64,000 nucleotides of DNA from an uncultured Pseudomonadales bacterium (GTDB lineage: Bacteria; Patescibacteriota; Microgenomatia; UBA1400; PJMF01), in the NCBI GenBank assembly GCA_964443885.1, contig CAYUES010000001.1, forward strand, positions 4,949 through 68,948, in the 5' to 3' direction. The first letter of the stretch is position 1. Each line of letters opens with the position of its first letter. Shown here piece by piece: positions 8,997-63,635 of this stretch. The position numbers and the translations under genes were made by a program. The notes beneath the pieces were generated by a model. That model searched no databases. It saw only the letters and a program-made list of their open reading frames with translations, and was not told the origin of the DNA.

Positions 8997-9743
8997 ATGA
9001 AAATTACTCCCGTCAAAACACCAATTGTCCACGTCAACGACAACCTATTTGAGATCGTCAAAGCTGCCTTTCCAACTATTCCTGAAAACTCGGTGATTGC
9101 GGTCACGTCCAAGATCGTGGCTTTGTGTGAAGGCAATGTTGCCCCAGTCGTGACTGGCAGCCGTGAAGAAAAACACGCAATTGTTCGTGAAGAAGCCGAT
9201 GCCTATATCGAAGCCAGTAACTCTAAGTACGATGTAATGCTGGCGATCAAAGATCAAGTCTTGGCGGTCAATGCCGGTGTTGATATGTCCAATGCAGATA
9301 ATCAATACGTGAAGTTGCCTAAAGAGTCCTATAAGAGTGCTGCAGACCTGTGGCAGAGCGTGAAAACACACTATAGGCTTAAAAATCTCGGTATTTTAAT
9401 TACTGATAGCAAAACAATTCCTCTCAAATGGGGCACGATCGGAACCGCTCTCGCCCACTCTGGTTTCAAAGGTGTTCGCAATAGAATTGGTGAAAAAGAT
9501 TTATTTGGGTACGAAATGCAGATGACGCAGATTAATATTGCCGAGGCGCTGGCAGTAGCAGCAGTCTTATCGATGGGTGAAGTGGCAGAACAACAGCCAC
9601 TCTGTTTACTCGAGGAAATTCCGCAGATTGAGTTCCAGAATCAACCACCTACCCCAGAAGAAATCAAAAATCTTGAAATTGCTCTGGAAGACGACGTCTA
9701 TGCGCCAATTCTCCAGACAGCACCCTGGAAAAAGAAAGTATAA
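8997..9743 (+). CDS. CofE-like protein (F420-0:gamma-glutamyl ligase family, PF01996-like), function uncertain
   Basis: IAVTSKIVALCEGN motif and about 250 aa length resemble the CofE/FbiB N-domain family. No other F420 genes in the window. Assigned from memory of family motifs. Confidence 0.45.
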   Translation: MKITPVKTPIVHVNDNLFEIVKAAFPTIPENSVIAVTSKIVALCEGNVAPVVTGSREEKHAIVREEADAYIEASNSKYDVMLAIKDQVLAVNAGVDMSNADNQYVKLPKESYKSAADLWQSVKTHYRLKNLGILITDSKTIPLKWGTIGTALAHSGFKGVRNRIGEKDLFGYEMQMTQINIAEALAVAAVLSMGEVAEQQPLCLLEEIPQIEFQNQPPTPEEIKNLEIALEDDVYAPILQTAPWKKKV

Positions 9744-15035: not shown

Positions 15036-16328
15036 CTATGCAGTTTGGGTTTGTGCAGGTGTTTGCTGTTGATAGTGTTGGGCGATTTCAAAGTTAATCT
15101 GTGCTAGACGATTATACTTTGCGGTGCGTTCACCTCGATTAGTAGGACCAAACTTGGCGTAGTCAGAACCCACCCCCACTGCAAAATCAGCAATGAAGTC
15201 ATCGTTGGTTTCGCCACTCCGGTGTGACATCACGATCTGCCAGTTAGCAGCCTTCGCAACTTTAATCACCTCGATTGTTTCTGTAATCGTACCGACCTGG
15301 TTTGGTTTGACCAGCAGTGTATTACAAAGTTTATTGGCAATGGCATTTTCTAGCTTTGCTTTATTAGTAGCCAGGAAACTATCGCCGACGATCTTGGTAG
15401 TTTCACCAATCTCGGCTGTCACTGCCTTCCACATATTCGTGTCATCTTCCTGGTAGGGGTCTTCTAGGTAGAATACATTGTACATATCGCGCATTTTTTT
15501 ATAGTATGCCAGTAGTTCCTCGCCAGAATACGGTTGTGAACGATCTTTTATCGTATAACGGCCACCTGAATATAACTGTTCAGCCGCGACATCAACACCA
15601 AAGAACAAATCTTGAGTAAAGGTATACGGCGTGGCTTTGATAGTTTCGACCATGATCTCAAAAACGTCACTATTACTATACAGGTTTGGAGTGAAGCCAC
15701 CGACTAGTCCCACCGAGTGAATTGCTCCTTTTAAAATCAACACTTCTTCGAGTTTTTGAAAAATAGTGACAGCCATGTCGAGTGAGCCTTCATAACTCAA
15801 GTGACTAGCAGGAATAACTTGAAACTCTTGGAAGTCTAAGTTATTTGCTCCATGCTCTCCTCCATTTACCACGGTGTAGATACAGGTTGGAATTGTCAGT
15901 GATTGGGTCAGCTGATACTTTTGCATGATGTAGTAGTACAGAGGGACGTTCTGGGAAAGTGCGCCAGCCTTGAGGGTGGCCTGGGAAACAGCGAGGACGG
16001 CGTTTACCCCGAGCTTTGATTTATTTGGTGTGCCATCTAACTGGATTAAAATATTGTCAATTTCTTCTTGATTAGTGGGATCTTTGCCAATAATTTGTGG
16101 CGCAATATAGGTATTAATATAGTTGACGGCCGTCAAGACACCTTTGCCGAGCATGCGGTTGGGATCTTTGTCCCGTAGCTCTAGTGCTTCATACTTTCCA
16201 ATTGAAGTACCAGTGGGAACACTAGTTGCCACAATACCCCCTGTATCAAGCCAAAGTGTGCACTCAATAGTAGGCCAACCTCGAGAGTCGAGGATTTCAC
16301 GCGCGTATATTCCTTGAATGATTGCCAT
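15036..16328 (-). CDS. eno: Enolase (copy 1, in glycolytic operon)
   Basis: MAIIQGIYAREILDSRGWPTIE...SHRSGETNDDFIADFAVG...RGERTAKYNRL. Full-length enolase. Note ETND in place of canonical ETED and RGER in place of RSER. Confidence 0.9.
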   Translation of the reverse strand: MAIIQGIYAREILDSRGWPTIECTLWLDTGGIVATSVPTGTSIGKYEALELRDKDPNRMLGKGVLTAVNYINTYIAPQIIGKDPTNQEEIDNILIQLDGTPNKSKLGVNAVLAVSQATLKAGALSQNVPLYYYIMQKYQLTQSLTIPTCIYTVVNGGEHGANNLDFQEFQVIPASHLSYEGSLDMAVTIFQKLEEVLILKGAIHSVGLVGGFTPNLYSNSDVFEIMVETIKATPYTFTQDLFFGVDVAAEQLYSGGRYTIKDRSQPYSGEELLAYYKKMRDMYNVFYLEDPYQEDDTNMWKAVTAEIGETTKIVGDSFLATNKAKLENAIANKLCNTLLVKPNQVGTITETIEVIKVAKAANWQIVMSHRSGETNDDFIADFAVGVGSDYAKFGPTNRGERTAKYNRLAQINFEIAQHYQQQTPAQTQTA

Positions 16329-26355: not shown

Positions 26356-26694
26356 TTACTTACTCACCATACTATTTGTCACACTACCAATTATGGAGAG
26401 TGTGATAGCAAACAGTATCGCAGACATCACGCCTTCGAGTTCAAATCCTGGAACTACTGCATCGACCAAGAACAAAATTATCAAGTTGATCACGAACAAG
26501 AATAATCCAAAGGTGAGAATCGTAATCGGCAAGGTCAACAGTGTCAAAATTGGTTTAACAATTGCGTTCATAAAACCTAGCACTACCGTTACTAAGACAG
26601 CGCTCAAAAATGAGTCCACTCGCGCACCCGGAATTAGGTATGCAGCAAGCATAACTGTTATCGCATTGACGATGATTGAAAAAATAAGTGCCAT
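26356..26694 (-). CDS. DUF360 / phage-holin-4_2 family small membrane protein
   Basis: 112 aa, 4 TM. LIPGARVDSFLSAVLVTVVLGFMNAIVKPIL...FGLFLFVINLII matches PF04020 pattern. Confidence 0.6.
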   Translation of the reverse strand: MALIFSIIVNAITVMLAAYLIPGARVDSFLSAVLVTVVLGFMNAIVKPILTLLTLPITILTFGLFLFVINLIILFLVDAVVPGFELEGVMSAILFAITLSIIGSVTNSMVSK

Positions 26695-29798: not shown

Positions 29799-30434
29799 TC
29801 AAAATACAATATTCTTTACTTCGTTGATCATCTTGGCTTTTATCTCTTCCCAACTCACATCTTTGATCATACGTGGCAGAGGCTGTGCTTCTGCATCTTC
29901 AAAATAAACGAGCGATTTTAAAATGTGAGCTTGATTATAATCTACAGCAGAATACTTGGTTTTTGCCTTTTCAAGTAACTCTGGCAAATGATATATACTA
30001 AACAAAAAGAACAAATCCACAAAGTCTTTTTTACTCCCTCTCATGCTGACTGTTTGCAACTTGGTACAGGCAATATCAAGCACAGAACTAAGCTGTATTT
30101 CTTGCCAGTGACCAAGGGGTTCAAGCAATGGGTAGTGATACTCCAAAAACTGCAGTTTGACACCATCAACATAGGTATTTAATGTCCCTGTAGCAAGCTC
30201 AGTGTTGTTAAGTTGTCCTAATCCAGCAACTTCTTTTTCAAGTTGCAGAGGATTAAATTGCTCTGTACAGAAAAAATCCAAATCTTCAGACTCACGATGC
30301 CCTATCTGTAAAGATAGTCCTGTGCCTCCTGACAAATAAAAAGATTTTAGAAACTCAGGCTGTAATTGATGAATTTTTTCAACAAGTTTTGCAGTTTTGC
30401 TGGGTAGTGTTTCGGGGTAAAATGTTGTGCTCAT
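29799..30434 (-). CDS. AbiEii/AbiGii-family nucleotidyltransferase (type IV toxin-antitoxin toxin, DUF1814/PF08843)
   Basis: YLSGGTGLSLQIGHRESEDLDFF matches the AbiEii signature (GGTaLxxxxxHRxSxDlDf). Track start 30452 is TTG; ATG at 30434 overlaps the upstream gene stop as ATGA. Confidence 0.8.
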   Translation of the reverse strand: MSTTFYPETLPSKTAKLVEKIHQLQPEFLKSFYLSGGTGLSLQIGHRESEDLDFFCTEQFNPLQLEKEVAGLGQLNNTELATGTLNTYVDGVKLQFLEYHYPLLEPLGHWQEIQLSSVLDIACTKLQTVSMRGSKKDFVDLFFLFSIYHLPELLEKAKTKYSAVDYNQAHILKSLVYFEDAEAQPLPRMIKDVSWEEIKAKMINEVKNIVF

Positions 30435-30664
30435 GACAGGTAAATCCGCCAAAAATTACTTGATTTAGGTTGTAATTTTAATTGTGGGAGTAAGTTCTGT
30501 AGCTCTACTCTATTGGTCTGCTTAAAAAGCCAGTTTAGTGCTTCAGTATTGCCTTTATCAAGCAGTGTTTGAATGATGTATTTTTTGTGTTTTGACCAAT
30601 CTAGTTCATCTAAATTATCACCCCAAAAATAGGCTTCTAACTGCGTGGGAATCTGTAATTTCAT
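30431..30664 (-). CDS. Small protein translationally coupled to AbiEii toxin gene; candidate antitoxin/partner (not AbiEi-like)
   Basis: 77-aa ORF from ATG 30664 (TATAAT 7 nt upstream). Stop TGA overlaps AbiEii ATG (ATGA at 30431-30434). No wHTH/AbiEi signature seen. Confidence 0.5.
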   Translation of the reverse strand: MKLQIPTQLEAYFWGDNLDELDWSKHKKYIIQTLLDKGNTEALNWLFKQTNRVELQNLLPQLKLQPKSSNFWRIYLS

Positions 30665-43604: not shown

Positions 43605-45158
43605 TTAGTCGCGCAAATCGCGGTTAATACTCCCAATCAGTTGTGGACCTTGATAAATCATGCCTGTGATAAGTTGAACTAAGTCTGCTCCCAAGGCTAT
43701 TTTTTGGCGCGCGTCTTCGGCAGAGAAAATGCCCCCAGTCCCAATAATCGTAAAGCGATTTTTATAGTGTTTTTTTGTCAAAGCAATCAATCTATTGGAA
43801 CGCTCAAAAGTAGGCTTGCCACTCAAGTTACCCTTGCGTTTTTGCCATTCTTTGGCGTCTTCGGTAGCGACGGCTGGATTAGTTTTGTCTTTTGTGAGGT
43901 TGCCCAAAATCACGCCAGCAGTTTTGTGTTTTGCGATGACCGCGAGCAGTTGCAGGCTTTCTTTTTCTGATTGATCAATCGGCATTTTGACATAGATCGG
44001 CTTGGTGACTTTCAGTTTATCAAGTGCAGTCAGTAGTATTTCCAACCTGTTTGTCGTGGTGAATGGTTCGCCACCAAACGTATTCGGGCAACTAATATTC
44101 AACTCATAGTAAGAATGACCGACTTTTGATTTCTCAAATAATCGAAAACAAGTAATAATGTCGGTAATCTGCTCTTTGTCAGTTTCGTAGGCAGCATTGG
44201 TGCTCCCGATACTAATTCCAACCGGGATTTTGAACTGTAACGGAGTAAGTTTTTTGATAATTTCCTGTGCGCCGATGTTTTTAAGACCTTTATTAACGAG
44301 CAGTGCTTTGGAGTTCGGGAAACGCCCAAGCATTGGCGAAGTATTGCCGTCATAAGAATGCAGTGTCACCGTACCAACGGTGTGCCAACCAAACCCGACC
44401 GAAGGCAGAATTTGTGTTAAGTCGGCGTTGTAGTCAAAGCCCGCTGATAAGCCAACTGGATTAGGAAAAACAATGCCATCACGTTTGGTGGCGAGCGCAG
44501 GGTCATAGTACGCAAAGAGTGCGCTATTGATGGCTTGAGTTATCGAGAAGTTGCCAAAAAATGCACCCAACTTTGTCATCGTATCGTGAACGAGCTCAGG
44601 ATCGAAAAGAAAGAAAATTGGCTTTAAAACAGTGGTGTACAAAAAACTAATCACCGAGTGAAAGACAGTCTTGGTGCTGTATCCAGATTTTTGGCTGTAG
44701 AGCGCAACGTAGGTTTGGGTAGTGATAAATAACAGCGTGCTGACAGCCGCAGAAATTAAACAGTACGAACACCACGCTTTAATCACCACTCCCATTAGAA
44801 ATACTAAGTAAAATGAAAAAAGTAAGCCACCGATCGTAATTAGTTGCAGTAAATCCAGTGGTGAGGTTTTACGAATGAAGGCAGACTTGGAAGTTTTGAA
44901 AAAAGAACTTTTTTTGAAGTCTAGTTCCAGAAAATGCATAACAGCGAGCACAAAAACAGTTAGGTAGTAACCCAAACCGAGTGCTGAAAGTGGAAGCGGT
45001 CCAATCTGGGCGTACGGACTACTTAAAACAGTTTCGCATTGAAAACCTGGCGTACACGGTGGAATCACCCCCGCAACCTTTTCATAGGTTAAGTAACTGG
45101 CATCGGCAATGCCAATCAAAGATAAAACGATCAGCAGCAAAGACATGAAAACATTCAT
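43605..45158 (-). CDS. pyrD: Fusion protein: N-terminal VKOR (vitamin K epoxide reductase) membrane domain (aa 1 to about 160; nt 44679..45158) plus class-2 dihydroorotate dehydrogenase (PyrD; nt 43605..44678)
   Basis: VKOR half: LTYEKVAGVIPPCTPGFQCETVLSSPYAQIGPLPLSALGLGYY (loop Cys pair plus TVLSSPYA motif) and AWCSYCLISA (TM CxxC). DHODH half: FLFDPELVHDTM (class-2 N-terminal helices, cf. E. coli LFQLDPERAHEFT), FPNPVGLSAGFD, GFGWHTVGTVT, NISCPNT, GNLSGKP, IIGTGGIFS, GADLVQLITG. Single uninterrupted ORF from ATG 45158. Confidence 0.8.
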   Translation of the reverse strand: MNVFMSLLLIVLSLIGIADASYLTYEKVAGVIPPCTPGFQCETVLSSPYAQIGPLPLSALGLGYYLTVFVLAVMHFLELDFKKSSFFKTSKSAFIRKTSPLDLLQLITIGGLLFSFYLVFLMGVVIKAWCSYCLISAAVSTLLFITTQTYVALYSQKSGYSTKTVFHSVISFLYTTVLKPIFFLFDPELVHDTMTKLGAFFGNFSITQAINSALFAYYDPALATKRDGIVFPNPVGLSAGFDYNADLTQILPSVGFGWHTVGTVTLHSYDGNTSPMLGRFPNSKALLVNKGLKNIGAQEIIKKLTPLQFKIPVGISIGSTNAAYETDKEQITDIITCFRLFEKSKVGHSYYELNISCPNTFGGEPFTTTNRLEILLTALDKLKVTKPIYVKMPIDQSEKESLQLLAVIAKHKTAGVILGNLTKDKTNPAVATEDAKEWQKRKGNLSGKPTFERSNRLIALTKKHYKNRFTIIGTGGIFSAEDARQKIALGADLVQLITGMIYQGPQLIGSINRDLRD

Positions 45159-45178: not shown

Positions 45179-45988
45179 CTACTCCTTTTGCAATACAAGG
45201 TAGGTATTGGATGTGCCCTCTTTACCATCGGCTTGGTAGGTTTTCAGTTGTTTTAGGCCTGACATGTGAGCTAGCTCCTCGATCTCACTTTGTGTAAATG
45301 AGTGGCAGTAGCGCGCAAGGTTGGTATGCTCTTTCCAGCCCAGTAGGAAGTCATTTTCTTCGAGTTGATCGGTTGCTACTCCAAACTGTGTAGGATCAAG
45401 CGATTTATGGTGGTACCGTTCAAACTCTGCAAAACGCCAAAAACTTACGGCTAGGATTCCGCCAGCGGAAAGTTTGTCTGCACACTTTTTAATACAGAGC
45501 TGGCGAAGTTCTTGTGTTGGAATATGATGCAACACACCAAACGAAGTAATGAGATCAAAATTATTTTCGTCTATTTGAGAAGAAAAAGTATCGTCTAAAA
45601 GTGAGGTGATGAGATCAAAATATAGAACTTTATTCCCCGCACCCTCTACTTTCACAGACTGAAGTAGCACTTCAGCTTCAGAAAGTAAGGCTTGGTTGCT
45701 ATCAGTACCAAGATATGCCAAGTCGAAGTCGGTACTTTCTTGTAGGAAAGTTAAAAATCTGCCGTTGCCGCAGCCAATGTCTAAAACTGCGATTTCTTTC
45801 TTTTGAAGTTCAGCGGTAATAATTGGAGTCAAGACGTTCCAACCTGCCCAGGACTGTTGGCGTGTTTGGCTAAACGACTCACTTACTTGTGTATAAAAAG
45901 CTTGTGTTAGCTGATTTAGTTTTTGAATAAGACTCTGTTGCATTTTCCTATTGTAACCCAGCGATCTTGGTTTTGTTTGGCTCTTCAA
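45179..45988 (-). CDS. Class I SAM-dependent methyltransferase
   Basis: VLDIGCGNGRFLTFL (motif I). Rossmann pattern with acidic residue at end of beta2. Confidence 0.7.
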   Translation of the reverse strand: MKSQTKPRSLGYNRKMQQSLIQKLNQLTQAFYTQVSESFSQTRQQSWAGWNVLTPIITAELQKKEIAVLDIGCGNGRFLTFLQESTDFDLAYLGTDSNQALLSEAEVLLQSVKVEGAGNKVLYFDLITSLLDDTFSSQIDENNFDLITSFGVLHHIPTQELRQLCIKKCADKLSAGGILAVSFWRFAEFERYHHKSLDPTQFGVATDQLEENDFLLGWKEHTNLARYCHSFTQSEIEELAHMSGLKQLKTYQADGKEGTSNTYLVLQKE

Positions 45989-46055: not shown

Positions 46056-47873
46056 ATGGTACTTGAAGAACCTCGGACAGAAAATCAAAAACGAATGACG
46101 GAACTGCTGCAAAAAATAGATGCAGTAGCCAGTTTGTCACATACAGAGTACGCCAAACTCGTCAAGAAATTTCCTCAAACAGATGGTGATGTCTACTCAA
46201 AAGAAGATATTATTCGTGCCTACCGCGAGTTACAAACCACTGTTGGTTTCAAAAGTACCCCGGCCGAGTTTATTGCTAAAGTCCGCATGAAACCAATGCG
46301 CACGCAATCTGGAGTGGCGCCAATTACTGTTTTGACCAAACCATTCCCCTGCCCTGGCAAGTGTATTTTTTGTCCAAATGACATCAGAATGCCCAAGAGT
46401 TACTTGAGTGATGAACCAGGTGCGCAGCGCGCTGAGCGAAACTACTTTGATCCATACTTGCAAACATATAATCGCCTGCAGGCGCTGCATAATATTGGCC
46501 ATGAAGTTGATAAGGCAGAGATTATAGTTTTGGGTGGCACTTGGTCGTATTATCCTGAAGCGTATCAGATTTGGTTTATTAAGGAATGTTTTAAAGCGCT
46601 TAATGATTTTGGACTGCGTGATGATCGGCTGGTGGTAGAAAGACGGTATGCCGACATGCAAGCGACATTGGAAAAAAACTTTCAGCATGCACCAACCAAC
46701 AGTCCAACCGAGAACGAACACAACTTGGAAAAGCACAAAATTGACGGCACTGTATTAGATAAAAGTTACAACCAAACTGTTTCGCAGTTGTACGTCGCAC
46801 CCGAGCGACTCGGTGGTTTTGATGAGTATCAACAAGCCAGCTGGGATGAACTTATAGCCGAGCAACTAGTAAACGAAACAGCCCAAGTTCGCAACGTGGG
46901 ACTCGTGATTGAAACTCGGCCTGATAATATTTCTGAAGCTGAAGTGTTGCGTGTTCGCCGCCTGGGTTGTACCAAAACGCAGATTGGGATTCAAAGTTTA
47001 CAAGATGAAGTTTTGACCAAAAACAAACGTGGACATGATGTGGCTGCAACTCGTAAAGCTTTTCGATTACTGCGCCGAGCTGGCTTTAAAATTCATGCGC
47101 ACTGGATGGCAAATTTGTATGGTTCTAGTGTTGAGCTAGATAAAAAAGACTTTAGTGAACTTTTCAGTGATCCTGATTTTATGCCAGATGAACTGAAAGT
47201 CTATCCATGTTCATTAATTGGTAGTGCCGAGTTAATGCAGTACTACAAAAAAGGTTTGTGGAAACCGTACTCACACGAGGAACTCTTGGATGTCGTCACT
47301 TTCGCAATCAAAAGTACGCCTGAGTACTGTCGGTTAACACGCATTATTCGTGACATTCCTTCTACTGACATTGTGGTGGGAAATAAAATGACCAACTTCA
47401 GACAAGTCGCTGAAGAAGCCTTGAAAAAAGATGGTGAACACTCCAACGATATTCGTGAACGTGAAATTAGAGATCAAAAATATACGCGTGAGCAGCTGGT
47501 TCTGAAAGAAACTCACTACGCTACTTCAGTTAGTGAAGAGTATTTTTTGCAGTTTGTGATCCCCGAGACGAATCAAATTATTGGGTTCCTACGCTTGAGC
47601 CTGCCTAAAGAGGCGGCTTTCATCCCTGAACTGGCAACTGCAGCTTTAATTCGAGAAGTCCACGTTTATGGTGACTTGGTGAAACTGGGAACTCGCACCT
47701 CAGATACTGCGCAACATCGTGGGCTTGGCTCAGAGTTATTAGTACGAGCACAGGAAATTGCAAAAGAAGCTGAGTTTAAGAAACTTACAGTCATTTCTGC
47801 GATTGGCACGCGCGAGTACTACCGCAAACGCGGCTTTAGTGATGGTGAGTTGTATCAACACCTCGAGCTGTAG
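46056..47873 (+). CDS. Elp3-family radical SAM/GNAT protein (bacterial homolog of Elongator catalytic subunit; tRNA U34 cm5 modification)
   Basis: FPCPGKCIFCPND (Cys cluster), YFDPYLQTYNRLQALHNIGHEVDKAEIIVLGGTWSYYP (Elp3 signature), C-terminal GNAT IREVHVYGDLVKLG...HRGLGSELL...VISAIGTREYYRKRGF. 605 aa. TATAAT 8 nt upstream of ATG. Confidence 0.8.
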   Translation: MVLEEPRTENQKRMTELLQKIDAVASLSHTEYAKLVKKFPQTDGDVYSKEDIIRAYRELQTTVGFKSTPAEFIAKVRMKPMRTQSGVAPITVLTKPFPCPGKCIFCPNDIRMPKSYLSDEPGAQRAERNYFDPYLQTYNRLQALHNIGHEVDKAEIIVLGGTWSYYPEAYQIWFIKECFKALNDFGLRDDRLVVERRYADMQATLEKNFQHAPTNSPTENEHNLEKHKIDGTVLDKSYNQTVSQLYVAPERLGGFDEYQQASWDELIAEQLVNETAQVRNVGLVIETRPDNISEAEVLRVRRLGCTKTQIGIQSLQDEVLTKNKRGHDVAATRKAFRLLRRAGFKIHAHWMANLYGSSVELDKKDFSELFSDPDFMPDELKVYPCSLIGSAELMQYYKKGLWKPYSHEELLDVVTFAIKSTPEYCRLTRIIRDIPSTDIVVGNKMTNFRQVAEEALKKDGEHSNDIREREIRDQKYTREQLVLKETHYATSVSEEYFLQFVIPETNQIIGFLRLSLPKEAAFIPELATAALIREVHVYGDLVKLGTRTSDTAQHRGLGSELLVRAQEIAKEAEFKKLTVISAIGTREYYRKRGFSDGELYQHLEL

Positions 47874-62363: not shown

Positions 62364-63635
62364 TTACCCATGTTTCTGGATGTGTAACTCACGCTCTATC
62401 TCGAGTAGACGGTTGTATTTAGCTACACGCTCGCCTCTTGTTGGCCCCACCTTTATGTAAATGGCACCAACTGCTACGGCTAGATCAACCAGTGCAGTAT
62501 CGTTTGTTTCCCCACCACCACGATGTGACGGAATCGTACTCATGCCATGTTGCTTCGCCAGCATGCAGGTCTCGATAGTTTCAGATACACTACCGATTTG
62601 ATTGAGCTTAATTAGGATACTCGAGATTGCTTGGAGTTCAATAGCTTTCTGTAGTCTCTCCACACTCGTAACGGTGACGTCATCACCAATCAACGGGACG
62701 TGGTGCGCATCGCACATCTGTTTGCAGACTTGCCAGCTTGCCCAGTCATCTTCATGCAGCGGATCTTCTAAAGTCACAATTGGATATTTTTCTAATAATG
62801 TCTGGAAGTACTCAATCACTTCAGTTGGTGAAAGTGTTCGGTTTTCCAAAGCAAAGTGATACATGCCATCTTTGTAAAACTCATTGGCAGCAGCATCAAT
62901 CGAGAAACCCACGTCTACACCAGCCTGATACCCTGCTCTTTCAATTGCCTGGAGCATATATGAAAATGGTGCTTCGTTGGTAGTAATACCGCTTGGTGCA
63001 AAAGCGCCTTCATTCCCAACATTGGTAGATAAGTTATTTTCTTGCAAGATCTTAGCCAACGCATGGTAACATTCCAACATAATTCGTACACTCTCTGTAC
63101 GGTAACCTTGCTTTAATACACTAAAGCAGTATTCTTGCAGATCAGTTGAGTGGTCAGCATGTTTCCCGCCTTCAATTACGACAGCCATTGGTTGGGGTAG
63201 CACTTCAAATGTTGCGCCGGTCTGAAAGGTGTCACGCAGATGCAGGTACAAGGGTTTTTTCTGTGAGTTGGCGGCGGCACGGGCGGTGGCGACCGAGACA
63301 GCTAAGATGGCATTGCCACCCAAGCGTGATTTTTGCGGTGTCCCATCCAACTCAATCATTGTTTTATCGATTAGTTTCTGATTATTGGCATCCAAACCTA
63401 GCAAATGCGGCGCAATTTCTTCGTGGACGTTTCGAATTGCTTGCAGCATGCCTTTGCCGTTGTATCGTGCTTGATCTCCATCTACCAAGACCGATGCCTC
63501 GTGTGAGCCAGCTGAAGCCCCATATGGTACTGATGCGAGGCCAACACTGCCATCTTCAACCGTGACTTTGACTTCAATTGAAGGATACCCTCCCGAAGCA
63601 ATAATTTCGTAACACTGGATAGCGGTAATCTGCAT
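62364..63635 (-). CDS. Enolase (copy 2, divergent paralog)
   Basis: MQITAIQCYEIIASGGYPSIEVKV...SHRGGGETNDTALVDLAVAVGAIYIKVGPTRGERVAKYNRL. Full-length enolase fold. Shares the ETND/RGER variants with copy 1. Confidence 0.8.
   Translation of the reverse strand: MQITAIQCYEIIASGGYPSIEVKVTVEDGSVGLASVPYGASAGSHEASVLVDGDQARYNGKGMLQAIRNVHEEIAPHLLGLDANNQKLIDKTMIELDGTPQKSRLGGNAILAVSVATARAAANSQKKPLYLHLRDTFQTGATFEVLPQPMAVVIEGGKHADHSTDLQEYCFSVLKQGYRTESVRIMLECYHALAKILQENNLSTNVGNEGAFAPSGITTNEAPFSYMLQAIERAGYQAGVDVGFSIDAAANEFYKDGMYHFALENRTLSPTEVIEYFQTLLEKYPIVTLEDPLHEDDWASWQVCKQMCDAHHVPLIGDDVTVTSVERLQKAIELQAISSILIKLNQIGSVSETIETCMLAKQHGMSTIPSHRGGGETNDTALVDLAVAVGAIYIKVGPTRGERVAKYNRLLEIERELHIQKHG

What the first reader, a model, noticed from the sequence alone, without database searches (positions are those of the whole stretch)
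44088..44090. Class-2-type (membrane) DHODH carrying Cys instead of the catalytic Ser
The catalytic-base position reads NISCPNT (Cys357; codon at 44088-44090 on the minus strand, verified by back-translation). Class-2 quinone-dependent DHODHs have Ser here (E. coli NISSPNT). Cys at this position is the hallmark of cytosolic class-1 enzymes (L. lactis LSCPN). This protein otherwise looks class-2: N-terminal membrane helices and GGLSGRP-like GNLSGKP. It may therefore be a mechanistic hybrid, which is interesting given the fused VKOR thiol-redox domain.
Basis: partly seen in the sequence, partly recalled or inferred. Interest (0 to 1): 0.6.

Follow-up and report, generated by a model that had tools for sequence, protein, structure and literature searches.

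The report
Cysteine-type membrane DHODH fused to VKOR
The cysteine is really there, at the catalytic-base position of a membrane-type dihydroorotate dehydrogenase fused to a VKOR domain, but it is the normal residue for a large and little-studied branch of these enzymes and is not linked to the VKOR fusion.

Summary
Observation confirmed. ORF 43605..45158 (-) encodes 517 aa: a VKOR domain (aa 1-155) plus a class-2-type DHODH (aa 160-516). Codon 44088..44090 (TGC) is Cys357. It aligns with E. coli Ser175 and with L. lactis class-1 Cys130 and Cys135.

HMM scores, an AlphaFold model (pLDDT 95.5; best PDB match E. coli 1f76) and a tree (bootstrap 99 against class 1) all place the domain in class 2. 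The Cys is not special to this protein or to the fusion:
- All 120 closest fused homologues carry it.
- So do 114 of 125 full-length 50%-identity representatives, most of them unfused.
- So do 49 of the best 80 GTDB loci. These include Patescibacteria, DPANN archaea, Fodinibius, and cultured Flavobacteriaceae such as Olleya and Aurantibacter.
- Cys-type class-II DHODs were reported in fungi in 2021.

The less ordinary part is a CPR/DPANN subfamily that always has Cys and has a remodelled active site (N111V, T247L, Y318I, and a Lys/Tyr swap between positions 243 and 290). It recurs either fused to an intact VKOR or next to a separate VKOR gene.

Most likely the two domains are independent quinone reducers that have been joined. 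A redox relay between them remains untested.

The parts
43605..45158 (-). Whole ORF, 517 aa plus stop codon: VKOR-DHODH fusion protein
   Evidence: ORF; Pfam VKOR aa 8-147, DHO_dh aa 222-516; AlphaFold model, mean pLDDT 95.5, pTM 0.92
44694..45158 (-). VKOR domain (aa 1-155) with four transmembrane helices at 2-29, 57-76, 100-126 and 131-154
   Evidence: The Lys/Arg-rich loops (aa 77-99 and 155-171) against the Lys/Arg-free loop (aa 30-56) indicate an N-in topology with the cysteines outside (read directly from the sequence).
45036..45056 (-). VKOR loop cysteine pair, Cys35...Cys41 (CTPGFQC)
   Evidence: Invariant in 120/120 homologues. Aligns with Synechococcus VKOR CTGDGGC in 4nv6; these are Cys50/Cys56 in the published numbering, which I give from my own knowledge.
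44760..44771 (-). VKOR active-site CXXC, Cys130-Ser-Tyr-Cys133
   Evidence: Invariant in 120/120. Aligns with the Synechococcus VKOR FCMYC motif; coordinates checked.
44517..44681 (-). Class-2 DHODH N-terminal helical domain (aa 160-214), the presumed acceptor (quinone) tunnel. It includes His191, the equivalent of E. coli His19.
   Evidence: aligns with E. coli residues 6-40; helices 160-182, 187-202, 205-214; 346 columns aligned to 1f76, TM-score 0.89 normalised to the target; His is 138/139 in Cys-type and 23/23 in Ser-type sequences.
43611..44495 (-). DHODH FMN-binding barrel (aa 222-516)
   Evidence: PF01180, E 4.9e-47; TIGR01036 201.1 bits against cutoff 200; NF003652 269.5 bits against cutoff 267.
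44079..44099 (-). Active-site loop NISCPNT (aa 354-360), equivalent to E. coli N172-T178
44088..44090 (-). Cys357 codon (TGC), at the catalytic-base column
   Evidence: conserved in 120/120
44322..44324 (-). Arg279, the equivalent of the E. coli Arg102 quinone-site arginine
   Evidence: alignment; invariant in all 162 class-2-type sequences sampled.
44430..44432 (-). Tyr243 at the column of E. coli Lys66. It is paired with Lys290 (44289..44291) in a Lys/Tyr position swap.
   Evidence: members of the CPR/DPANN subfamily have either K243 with Y290 (occasionally A, L or V) or Y243+K290.

Best explanation
The gene encodes a bifunctional inner-membrane protein of a Patescibacteria (Microgenomates-like) bacterium.

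DHODH domain. The C-terminal two thirds is a dihydroorotate dehydrogenase of the class-2 (membrane, quinone-type) lineage. Cys357 replaces the textbook Ser as the base that removes the C5 proton of dihydroorotate while a hydride passes to FMN. The reduced flavin is then re-oxidised by a lipophilic acceptor, most likely a quinone. That acceptor would enter through the N-terminal helical tunnel lined by the invariant His191 and Arg279.

VKOR domain. The N-terminal third is an intact four-helix VKOR. Its outward-facing Cys35/Cys41 and Cys130-x-x-Cys133 oxidise secreted or Trx-fold proteins and also pass the electrons to quinone.

Why they are fused. The two domains work side by side rather than through each other. 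The fusion, which in some relatives is a pair of 4-nt-overlapping genes, anchors the DHODH at the membrane and keeps two users of the same scarce quinone together.

The cysteine. It is a lineage trait of a large Cys-type branch of class-2 DHODHs, not an adaptation to VKOR.

Shown here: domain identities, the catalytic-column alignment, conservation, the class-2 fold and class-2 phylogenetic placement, and the distribution of Cys. Inferred: the role of Cys as base (by analogy with class 1 and with the fungal Cys-type enzymes), quinone as the acceptor, the membrane topology, and the reason for the fusion.
For: - Domains.
- Column identity of Cys357 with E. coli Ser175 and L. lactis Cys130/Cys135.
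- Conservation: Cys357 and all four VKOR cysteines are 120/120. The VKOR cysteines align with those of the solved Synechococcus VKOR.
- Class-2 fold, including the N-terminal helices.
- Class-2 clade against class-1 outgroups, bootstrap 99.
- Acceptor-site His and Arg invariant in Cys-type and Ser-type sequences alike.
- Cys occurs in unfused enzymes of Patescibacteria, DPANN, Balneolota and Flavobacteriaceae with no VKOR nearby.
- Thr178 is invariant with Ser (23/23) but free to vary with Cys (T/V/A/L). This is as expected if a Cys base does not need the Ser-water-Thr proton relay.
- A split-gene version exists, with VKOR and DHODH overlapping by 4 nt (L001/L002).
- A PAP2-DHODH fusion (P0145) shows that non-redox polytopic partners also occur, which favours anchoring or co-localisation over a relay.
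- Fungal Cys-type class-II DHODs are functional DHODHs: PMC8520639.
- VKOR is common in CPR bacteria, where it pairs with MdbA-like oxidoreductases: PMC6744442.
Against: - No biochemical data exist for any member of this subfamily.
- CPR bacteria are generally described as lacking electron-transport chains and complete pyrimidine pathways (PMC11974145). That they also lack quinone biosynthesis is my own knowledge; the paper does not mention quinones. Both the acceptor and the pathway context are therefore uncertain.
- No pyr genes and no Trx/DsbA-type partner are found in the 64-kb window.
- The CPR/DPANN subfamily departs from canonical class 2 at several active-site columns: E. coli N111 to V288, N139 to S316, T247 to L421, Y318 to I497, K66 to Y243. 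Substrate or acceptor specificity may therefore have shifted.
- The high pTM (0.92) suggests a fixed packing of the two domains, which is also compatible with functional coupling.
- The curated class-2 HMM cutoffs are passed only marginally.
Confidence: 0.6

Rival explanations
1. Redox relay between the two domains through a shared or bound quinone. There are two versions. (a) Dihydroorotate oxidation feeds electrons through quinol to VKOR running in reverse and out to extracytoplasmic disulfides, which gives an organism without a respiratory chain an electron sink for pyrimidine synthesis. (b) VKOR-driven disulfide formation outside is drained by the DHODH-like domain acting as a terminal reductase (orotate or fumarate), with Cys357 as the general acid, as in the fumarate half-reaction of class-1A enzymes.
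For: - The VKOR-DHODH link recurs as a fusion (more than 120 clusters at 90% identity; L004, L005, L007) and as overlapping genes (L001/L002).
- All redox residues of both domains are invariant.
- The AlphaFold model places the two domains confidently relative to each other (pTM 0.92).
- CPR bacteria are reported to lack respiratory chains, so both enzymes need a sink.
- Two Woesearchaeota loci place a NapH-like Fe-S membrane protein directly upstream of the same DHODH subfamily. In L018 this protein also carries a cupredoxin domain.
Against: - Most Cys-type enzymes of the same subfamily have no VKOR within 4 kb.
- A PAP2 (non-redox) fusion exists.
- Thermodynamics, from my own knowledge: menaquinol at about -74 mV to a disulfide at about -120 mV or lower is uphill, and quinol to orotate at -258 mV is strongly uphill. 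Only fumarate would be a favourable acceptor.
- The VKOR quinone pocket lies near the outer face of the membrane and the DHODH tunnel at the inner face, so a quinone would have to flip across.
- No physiological reverse VKOR reaction is known.
Confidence: 0.15
2. The DHODH-like domain no longer uses quinone, or possibly no longer uses dihydroorotate. Like the fungal ArUra9 enzyme or class-1A enzymes, it would pass electrons to a soluble acceptor (free flavin, fumarate, O2). In that case VKOR serves only as a membrane anchor or as a co-expressed passenger.
For: - The fungal Cys-type ArUra9 uses free FMN/FAD, and Cys-type enzymes support respiration-independent growth.
- The subfamily has lost canonical residues next to the FMN, orotate and quinone sites (N111V, T247L, Y318I).
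- Its host lineages are reported to lack respiratory chains.
Against: - Unlike ArUra9, this protein keeps the full N-terminal helical domain and the invariant His191/Arg279 acceptor-site pair. ArUra9 is N-terminally truncated and has lost the positive residue.
- The orotate-ring ligands N354, N359 and N420 and the FMN lysine K391 are invariant.
- The Lys/Tyr swap between positions 243 and 290 preserves an active-site Lys.
Confidence: 0.15
3. Artefact or misclassification: the Cys is a sequencing or assembly error, or the domain is really a class-1 enzyme or a chimera.
For: Ser (TCC or AGC) and Cys (TGC) codons differ by one base. Cys is the class-1 hallmark.
Against: - Cys is present in 120/120 homologues from independent assemblies.
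- Class-1 HMMs score 55-59 bits against cutoffs of about 270.
- The class-1 Lys43 column holds Gly262 in the window protein.
- Bootstrap 99 separates the protein from the class-1 outgroups.
- The structural best hits are all class 2.
Confidence: 0.02

Closest known systems
E. coli PyrD and other class-2 quinone-dependent DHODHs (EC 1.3.5.2; PDB 1f76, 7t5k; TIGR01036, NF003652)
   Same: Same fold, including the N-terminal two-helix acceptor domain (TM-score 0.89 over 346 columns). About 30% identity. His19/Arg102 equivalents, the N172/N177/N246/K217 equivalents and Thr178 are all present. The class-2 HMMs are passed.
   Different: Cys instead of Ser175. V/S/L/I at the N111/N139/T247/Y318 columns. 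The Lys66 column holds Tyr, with a Lys at the Met113 column. It is fused to a 4-TM VKOR rather than being a monotopic protein.
Fungal Cys-type class-II DHODs (Schizosaccharomyces japonicus SjUra9, Dekkera bruxellensis DbUra9, Anaeromyces robustus ArUra9; Bouwknegt et al. 2021, PMC8520639)
   Same: A class-II scaffold with Cys at the catalytic-base column, found in organisms from anoxic or respiration-poor niches. They show that such enzymes are functional DHODHs.
   Different: Eukaryotic, and probably of independent origin. None has a VKOR fusion. ArUra9 is N-terminally truncated and lacks the acceptor-site positive residue, whereas this protein keeps both. The Cys was neither necessary nor sufficient for anaerobic function.
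Class-1A and class-1B DHODHs (L. lactis DHODA 1dor, DHODB 1ep1)
   Same: Cys as catalytic base within an N-x-S-C-P-N motif. A residue other than Thr is tolerated after the motif: Val in the two class-1 enzymes, and T/V/A/L variable among Cys-type class-2 sequences.
   Different: They have no N-terminal helical domain. The class-1 Lys43 column is Gly in the window protein. HMM scores are far below cutoff, and the outgroups separate with bootstrap 99.
Bacterial VKOR homologues (Synechococcus VKOR-Trx fusion 3kp9/4nv6; Actinomyces and Mycobacterium VKOR acting with MdbA/DsbA)
   Same: A 4-TM bundle with a loop Cys pair and a CXXC motif in register with the solved structure. VKOR is widespread in CPR bacteria.
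   Different: The C-terminal partner is a cytoplasmic flavoenzyme rather than a periplasmic thioredoxin-like domain. There is no fifth transmembrane helix.

Membership tests
Class-2 (quinone-dependent) DHODH | DHO_dh FMN barrel that scores above the curated class-2 equivalog cutoffs | tested here: met
   PF01180, E 4.9e-47. TIGR01036 201.1 bits against cutoff 200 and NF003652 269.5 bits against cutoff 267, both passed only marginally. Class-1 models score 55-59 bits against cutoffs of about 270.
Class-2 (quinone-dependent) DHODH | N-terminal helical extension forming the acceptor tunnel, with conserved His (E. coli H19) and Arg (E. coli R102) | tested here: met
   Helices at 160-214. Foldseek aligns 346 columns to 1f76, TM-score 0.89. 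His191 and Arg279 are invariant.
Class-2 (quinone-dependent) DHODH | Serine as catalytic base (E. coli S175) | tested here: not met
   Cys357 occupies this column. However, 139 of 162 sampled class-2-type sequences also have Cys, so the feature defines the characterised enzymes rather than the whole clade.
Class-2 (quinone-dependent) DHODH | Canonical active-site residues K66, N111, N139, T247 and Y318 (E. coli numbering) | tested here: not met
   The window has Y243, V288, S316, L421 and I497. Lys is supplied instead at position 290 through a Lys/Tyr swap.
Class-2 (quinone-dependent) DHODH | Groups with class 2 and not with class 1 in a phylogeny | tested here: met
   Neighbour-joining tree with 200 bootstraps: the class-2 clade including the window protein has 99% support against the DHODA, DHODB and PreA outgroups. 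Deeper nodes are unresolved.
Class-2 (quinone-dependent) DHODH | Uses membrane quinone as electron acceptor | not testable with these tools
   Only inferred, from the conserved tunnel residues.
Class-1A/1B DHODH | Cysteine as catalytic base | tested here: met
   Cys357 aligns with L. lactis Cys130 and Cys135.
Class-1A/1B DHODH | No N-terminal helical domain; active-site Lys on strand beta-2 (L. lactis K43); class-1 HMM score above cutoff | tested here: not met
   The N-terminal domain is present. Gly262 sits at the K43 column. TIGR01037 scores 54.8 bits against cutoff 270.
VKOR family (PF07884) | 4-TM bundle with a loop Cys pair and a CXXC motif at the start of TM4 | tested here: met
   Pfam 88 bits against cutoff 27.5. 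Four helices in the model. Cys35, Cys41, Cys130 and Cys133 are 120/120 invariant and align with the catalytic cysteines of Synechococcus VKOR.
VKOR family (PF07884) | A thioredoxin-fold redox partner (fused, or encoded nearby) | tested here: inconclusive
   No Trx/DsbA-type Pfam hit among the 60 window ORFs scanned (59 of them 100 aa or longer). The rest of the genome was not available.
Fungal Cys-type class-II DHOD (respiration-independent) | Class-II scaffold with Cys at the base position | tested here: met
   PMC8520639
Fungal Cys-type class-II DHOD (respiration-independent) | Supports pyrimidine synthesis without a respiratory chain | not testable with these tools
   Needs a complementation experiment.

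The most novel reading that the evidence does not exclude
The VKOR-DHODH fusion would be a self-contained transmembrane redox loop for cells without a respiratory chain. A shared quinone would couple the cytoplasmic dihydroorotate/orotate (or fumarate) chemistry at the Cys-type flavin site to thiol/disulfide chemistry on the outer face. Pyrimidine synthesis and extracytoplasmic disulfide metabolism would then serve as each other's electron sink or source. On the same reading, the always-Cys, active-site-remodelled CPR/DPANN branch would be a functionally distinct DHODH class.
Probability: 0.12. Interest if true: 0.75.

Novelty: new variant of a known kind. Interest (0 to 1): 0.4.

Why it matters
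The textbook rule 'class 2 = Ser, class 1 = Cys' comes from a handful of characterised enzymes. This analysis shows that it fails for a very large part of class-2 sequence space: CPR bacteria, DPANN archaea, Balneolota and some Flavobacteriaceae. The base residue has also switched more than once. This matters for automatic classification and annotation, for inhibitor design against class-2 enzymes, and for understanding how DHODH works in anaerobic or respiration-less organisms.

The CPR/DPANN subfamily, with its remodelled active site and its recurrent linkage to VKOR, is a concrete experimental handle. Experiments on it could show how ultra-small symbionts that are thought to lack quinones and electron-transport chains dispose of the electrons from pyrimidine synthesis and from disulfide-bond formation.

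The specific idea that the Cys is connected to the VKOR thiol chemistry is not supported.

Tried and rejected
- Sequencing error or pseudogene: rejected, because the Cys is conserved in 120/120 homologues.
- Class-1 enzyme or chimera: rejected.
- Cys specific to the VKOR fusion: rejected, because unfused Cys-type enzymes dominate.
- Cys specific to anaerobes or CPR bacteria: rejected, because it is found in cultured Flavobacteriaceae and Balneolaceae. That these organisms are aerobic and contain menaquinone is my own knowledge.
- A dedicated NCBIfam model for the Cys type: none exists. NF003652 hits both Cys-type and Ser-type sequences.
- Conserved neighbours pointing to the pyrimidine pathway or to an acceptor: a Pfam scan of 149 ORFs flanking unfused CPR/DPANN loci found no family in more than 3 ORFs and no pyr genes among the 25 families listed.
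- The methyltransferase immediately upstream looked like a possible quinone methyltransferase. Its best match is the tRNA methyltransferase Trm9, and it pairs with the neighbouring Elp3-like gene.
- Literature on a VKOR+DHODH fusion: the 46 papers that hold both terms are mainly about ferroptosis or vitamin K, judging from the 15 listed. No paper combines DHODH with 'candidate phyla radiation'.
- Sousa et al. 2021 (an analysis of 1500 class-2 sequences) is not in the library.
- The look-up of encoding contigs for the window protein itself: not on record.
- Foldseek against afdb50: the library was unavailable.
- Deep branching order, and hence whether Cys or Ser is ancestral in class 2, could not be resolved with neighbour-joining (bootstraps below 30).
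Full report
**1. The observation.**
The window holds a 517-aa ORF at 43605..45158 on the minus strand. The reverse-strand sequence reads AAT ATT AGT TGC CCG AAT ACG, with TGC at 44090..44088. This gives N-I-S-C-P-N-T with Cys357. Pfam finds VKOR (aa 8-147, 88 bits) and DHO_dh (aa 222-516, 161 bits) in the same ORF.

phmmer against the PDB aligns 'niscpnt' with 'nisspnt' of E. coli DHODH 1f76. I then added three kinds of reference sequence:
- E. coli PyrD and PreA, taken from NC_000913.

In the resulting MAFFT alignment Cys357 shares its column with E. coli Ser175, L. lactis Cys130 and Cys135, and the PreA Cys. It cannot be an error, because all 120 of the closest homologues read NISCPN.

**2. 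What the protein is.**
The DHODH part belongs to the class-2 lineage on four lines of evidence:
- Class-2 equivalog HMMs score 175-284 bits. TIGR01036 reaches 201.1 against a cutoff of 200 and NF003652 reaches 269.5 against 267. The class-1 pyrD equivalog/subfamily models (TIGR01037, NF005574) reach only 55-59 bits against cutoffs of about 270.
- An AlphaFold2 model built on 80 fused homologues is very confident (mean pLDDT 95.5, pTM 0.92). It shows four VKOR transmembrane helices (2-29, 57-76, 100-126, 131-154), then three helices (160-214), then the barrel.
- Foldseek against the PDB returns only class-2 enzymes at the top. E. coli 1f76/7t5k give E about 5e-24 and TM-score 0.89-0.90 normalised to the target, over 346 columns. 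The match therefore includes the N-terminal helical domain.
- In a bootstrapped neighbour-joining tree, the 163 class-2-type sequences including the window protein separate from the three class-1-type outgroups with 99% support.

The VKOR part is intact. Cys35, Cys41, Cys130 and Cys133 are invariant in 120/120 sequences. They align with the catalytic CTGDGGC and FCMYC motifs of the solved Synechococcus VKOR.

The Lys/Arg distribution supports a particular topology. There are six Lys/Arg in loop 77-99, two in 155-171 and none in loop 30-56. Together with the absence of a fifth transmembrane helix, this puts the VKOR cysteines on the outer face and the DHODH in the cytoplasm. This is an inference from the sequence and the model.

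Source names given to homologues (Patescibacteria group, Pacebacteria, Woesebacteria) and the gene content of the window indicate a Patescibacteria genome.

**3. How unusual is the Cys?**
It is not unusual within this lineage.
- A search of 1.84 billion 50%-identity representatives with the DHODH part gave 7437 hits. Of the best 150, 125 are full length. 114 of these have Cys, 10 have Ser, and one probably truncated sequence has Asn. Most of the Cys forms are unfused proteins of 350-380 aa.
- The 119 nearest relatives of one distant unfused member (P0246, 32% identical to the query) all read N[IV]SCPN. They include proteins from Halalkalibaculum roseum, Halalkalibaculum sp., Aliifodinibius and a Gracilimonas MAG, which NCBI names 'quinone-dependent DHODH'.
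- Among the best 80 loci from GTDB species representatives, 49 have Cys and 31 have Ser.
  - Cys occurs in many Patescibacteria classes, in Woese-, Pace- and Nanoarchaeota, in Fodinibius, and in Flavobacteriaceae (Aurantibacter aestuarii, Olleya sediminilitoris, Algibacter, Kordia).
  - Ser occurs in Pedobacter, Mucilaginibacter, Gelidibacter, Chryseobacterium, cyanobacteria and a Thermoplasmata MAG.
- The Flavobacteriaceae Cys clade (bootstrap 100) is sister to a Ser-bearing Bacteroidota clade (bootstraps 66 and 74). The residue has therefore switched more than once.
- NF003652 scores Cys-type and Ser-type proteins alike above its cutoff.
- The literature already describes Cys-type class-II DHODs in fungi. 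These support respiration-independent pyrimidine synthesis. [quoted passage not shown]

**4. Is the Cys linked to VKOR?**
No. Among the 80 GTDB loci, VKOR is fused in three (L004, L005, L007). It is absent within 4 kb of every other Cys-type locus.

The VKOR-DHODH link itself is real and recurrent, however. More than 120 clusters at 90% identity are fused. In L001 and L002 an uncalled 185-aa VKOR ORF overlaps the start of an 'unfused' DHODH gene by 4 nt.

Other fusions of the same subfamily exist. One has a PAP2 membrane phosphatase at the N-terminus (P0145). This shows that a polytopic partner need not be a redox protein.

**5. A distinct subfamily.**
I mapped E. coli residues onto 162 class-2-type sequences. 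The acceptor-site His19 and Arg102 equivalents (His191, Arg279) are conserved throughout (Arg in all 162, His in 161). So are the orotate/FMN ligands N172, N177, N246 and K217 in all but at most one sequence each (N354, N359, N420, K391 in the window).

Two groups emerge:
- A canonical group (K66, N111, N139, T247, Y318) that carries either Ser or Cys.
- A CPR/DPANN group that always carries Cys and has Val or Ile, usually Ser, Leu and usually Ile at the N111, N139, T247 and Y318 columns.

In the second group, the Lys66 column and the Met113 column hold either K with Y (less often A, L or V) or Y with K. The window has Y243 and K290. This is a compensatory position swap, and it argues that the active-site lysine is retained.

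Thr178 is invariant with Ser (23/23) but varies with Cys (T, V, A, L). This fits a Cys base that does not need the Ser-water-Thr proton relay. That last point is an inference from the known class-2 mechanism.

**6. Mechanism.**
Best-supported reading:
- Cys357 is the general base for C5 deprotonation, by analogy with class-1 enzymes and with the functional fungal Cys-type enzymes.
- FMN is re-oxidised by a lipophilic acceptor through the His191/Arg279 tunnel.
- VKOR independently oxidises extracytoplasmic thiols and also reduces quinone, as in Actinomyces, where it acts with MdbA. VKOR is common in CPR bacteria (PMC6744442).
- The fusion tethers the DHODH to the membrane and co-localises two users of one quinone.

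Open problem: CPR bacteria are reported to lack respiratory chains and complete pyrimidine pathways (PMC11974145). The window contains no pyr genes and no Trx-fold partner. A relay between the two domains, or a changed acceptor, therefore cannot be excluded. The thermodynamics (my own knowledge) disfavour a reverse VKOR reaction and orotate reduction, and would allow only fumarate as a sink.

**7. Verdict.**
The finding is a true observation with an over-interpreted meaning. The Cys is the ordinary state of a large branch of class-2 DHODHs that is biochemically uncharacterised in prokaryotes, and it has a published fungal precedent.

The parts worth following up are the always-Cys CPR/DPANN subfamily with its remodelled active site, and its recurrent fusion or operon linkage with VKOR. 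I found no paper describing either. The searches behind that statement were limited.

Interest is moderate (0.4). Novelty: new variant of a known kind.

Noticed in passing
L001 3447..4004 (+) and L002 1496..2053 (+): An uncalled 185-aa VKOR ORF with a loop Cys pair and a CMYC motif overlaps the start of the 'unfused' Cys-type DHODH gene (P0124) by 4 nt. This is a split-gene version of the fusion, and gene callers missed the VKOR ORF.
   Followed up: partly
L018 2409..3959 (+); L032 153..1760 (+): In two Woesearchaeota loci, a polytopic membrane protein of about 517 aa with a NapH/CcoG-like Fer4_5 4Fe-4S domain lies immediately upstream of the Cys-type DHODH gene. In L018 it overlaps that gene and also carries a C-terminal cupredoxin domain. 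This is a second kind of membrane redox module linked to the subfamily.
   Followed up: partly
P0145, P0127, P0158, P0209, P0256, P0220; L081 2594..5062 (+): Other fusions of class-2-type DHODH: PAP2 phosphatase + DHODH (P0145); DHODH + cytidylyltransferase-like domain (P0127); several N- or C-terminal extensions with no Pfam hit; and an 823-aa Thermoplasmata ORF with a Ser-type DHODH at its C-terminus.
   Followed up: partly
window 44430..44432 (Tyr243) and 44289..44291 (Lys290): Within the CPR/DPANN subfamily, a Lys/Tyr pair swaps between the columns of E. coli Lys66 and Met113: sequences have either K...Y or Y...K. This suggests that the two residues touch and that the active-site lysine has moved to the other position.
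   Followed up: partly
window 45179..45988 (-) and 46056..47873 (+): A SAM-dependent methyltransferase whose best PDB match is the tRNA methyltransferase Trm9 (5cm2_Z, E 1e-4) sits back to back with an Elp3-like radical-SAM + GNAT protein. This is probably a bacterial Elp3/Trm9 pair that modifies tRNA U34. The order Elp3 | MTase -> VKOR-DHODH | VIT1 is conserved in relatives (L086-L088).
   Followed up: partly
window 15036..16328 (-) and 62364..63635 (-): Two full-length enolase genes lie in one 64-kb stretch of a small-genome bacterium.
   Followed up: no
L004, L005, L012, L014 (GTDB records CAZBTU01, CAZNKS01, CAZDUE01, CAZYCR01): The record titles say Pseudomonadales, Methanosarcinales or Gammaproteobacteria, but the loci carry CPR/DPANN-type DHODH, and L004 and L005 carry the VKOR fusion. 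The taxonomy labels of these TPA assemblies are probably wrong.
   Followed up: no
window 29799..30452 (-), 26356..26694 (-), 8997..9743 (+): An AbiEii-type toxin gene, a holin-family (Phage_holin_4_2) membrane protein, and an F420-0:gamma-glutamyl ligase-like gene are present in this Patescibacteria window.
   Followed up: no
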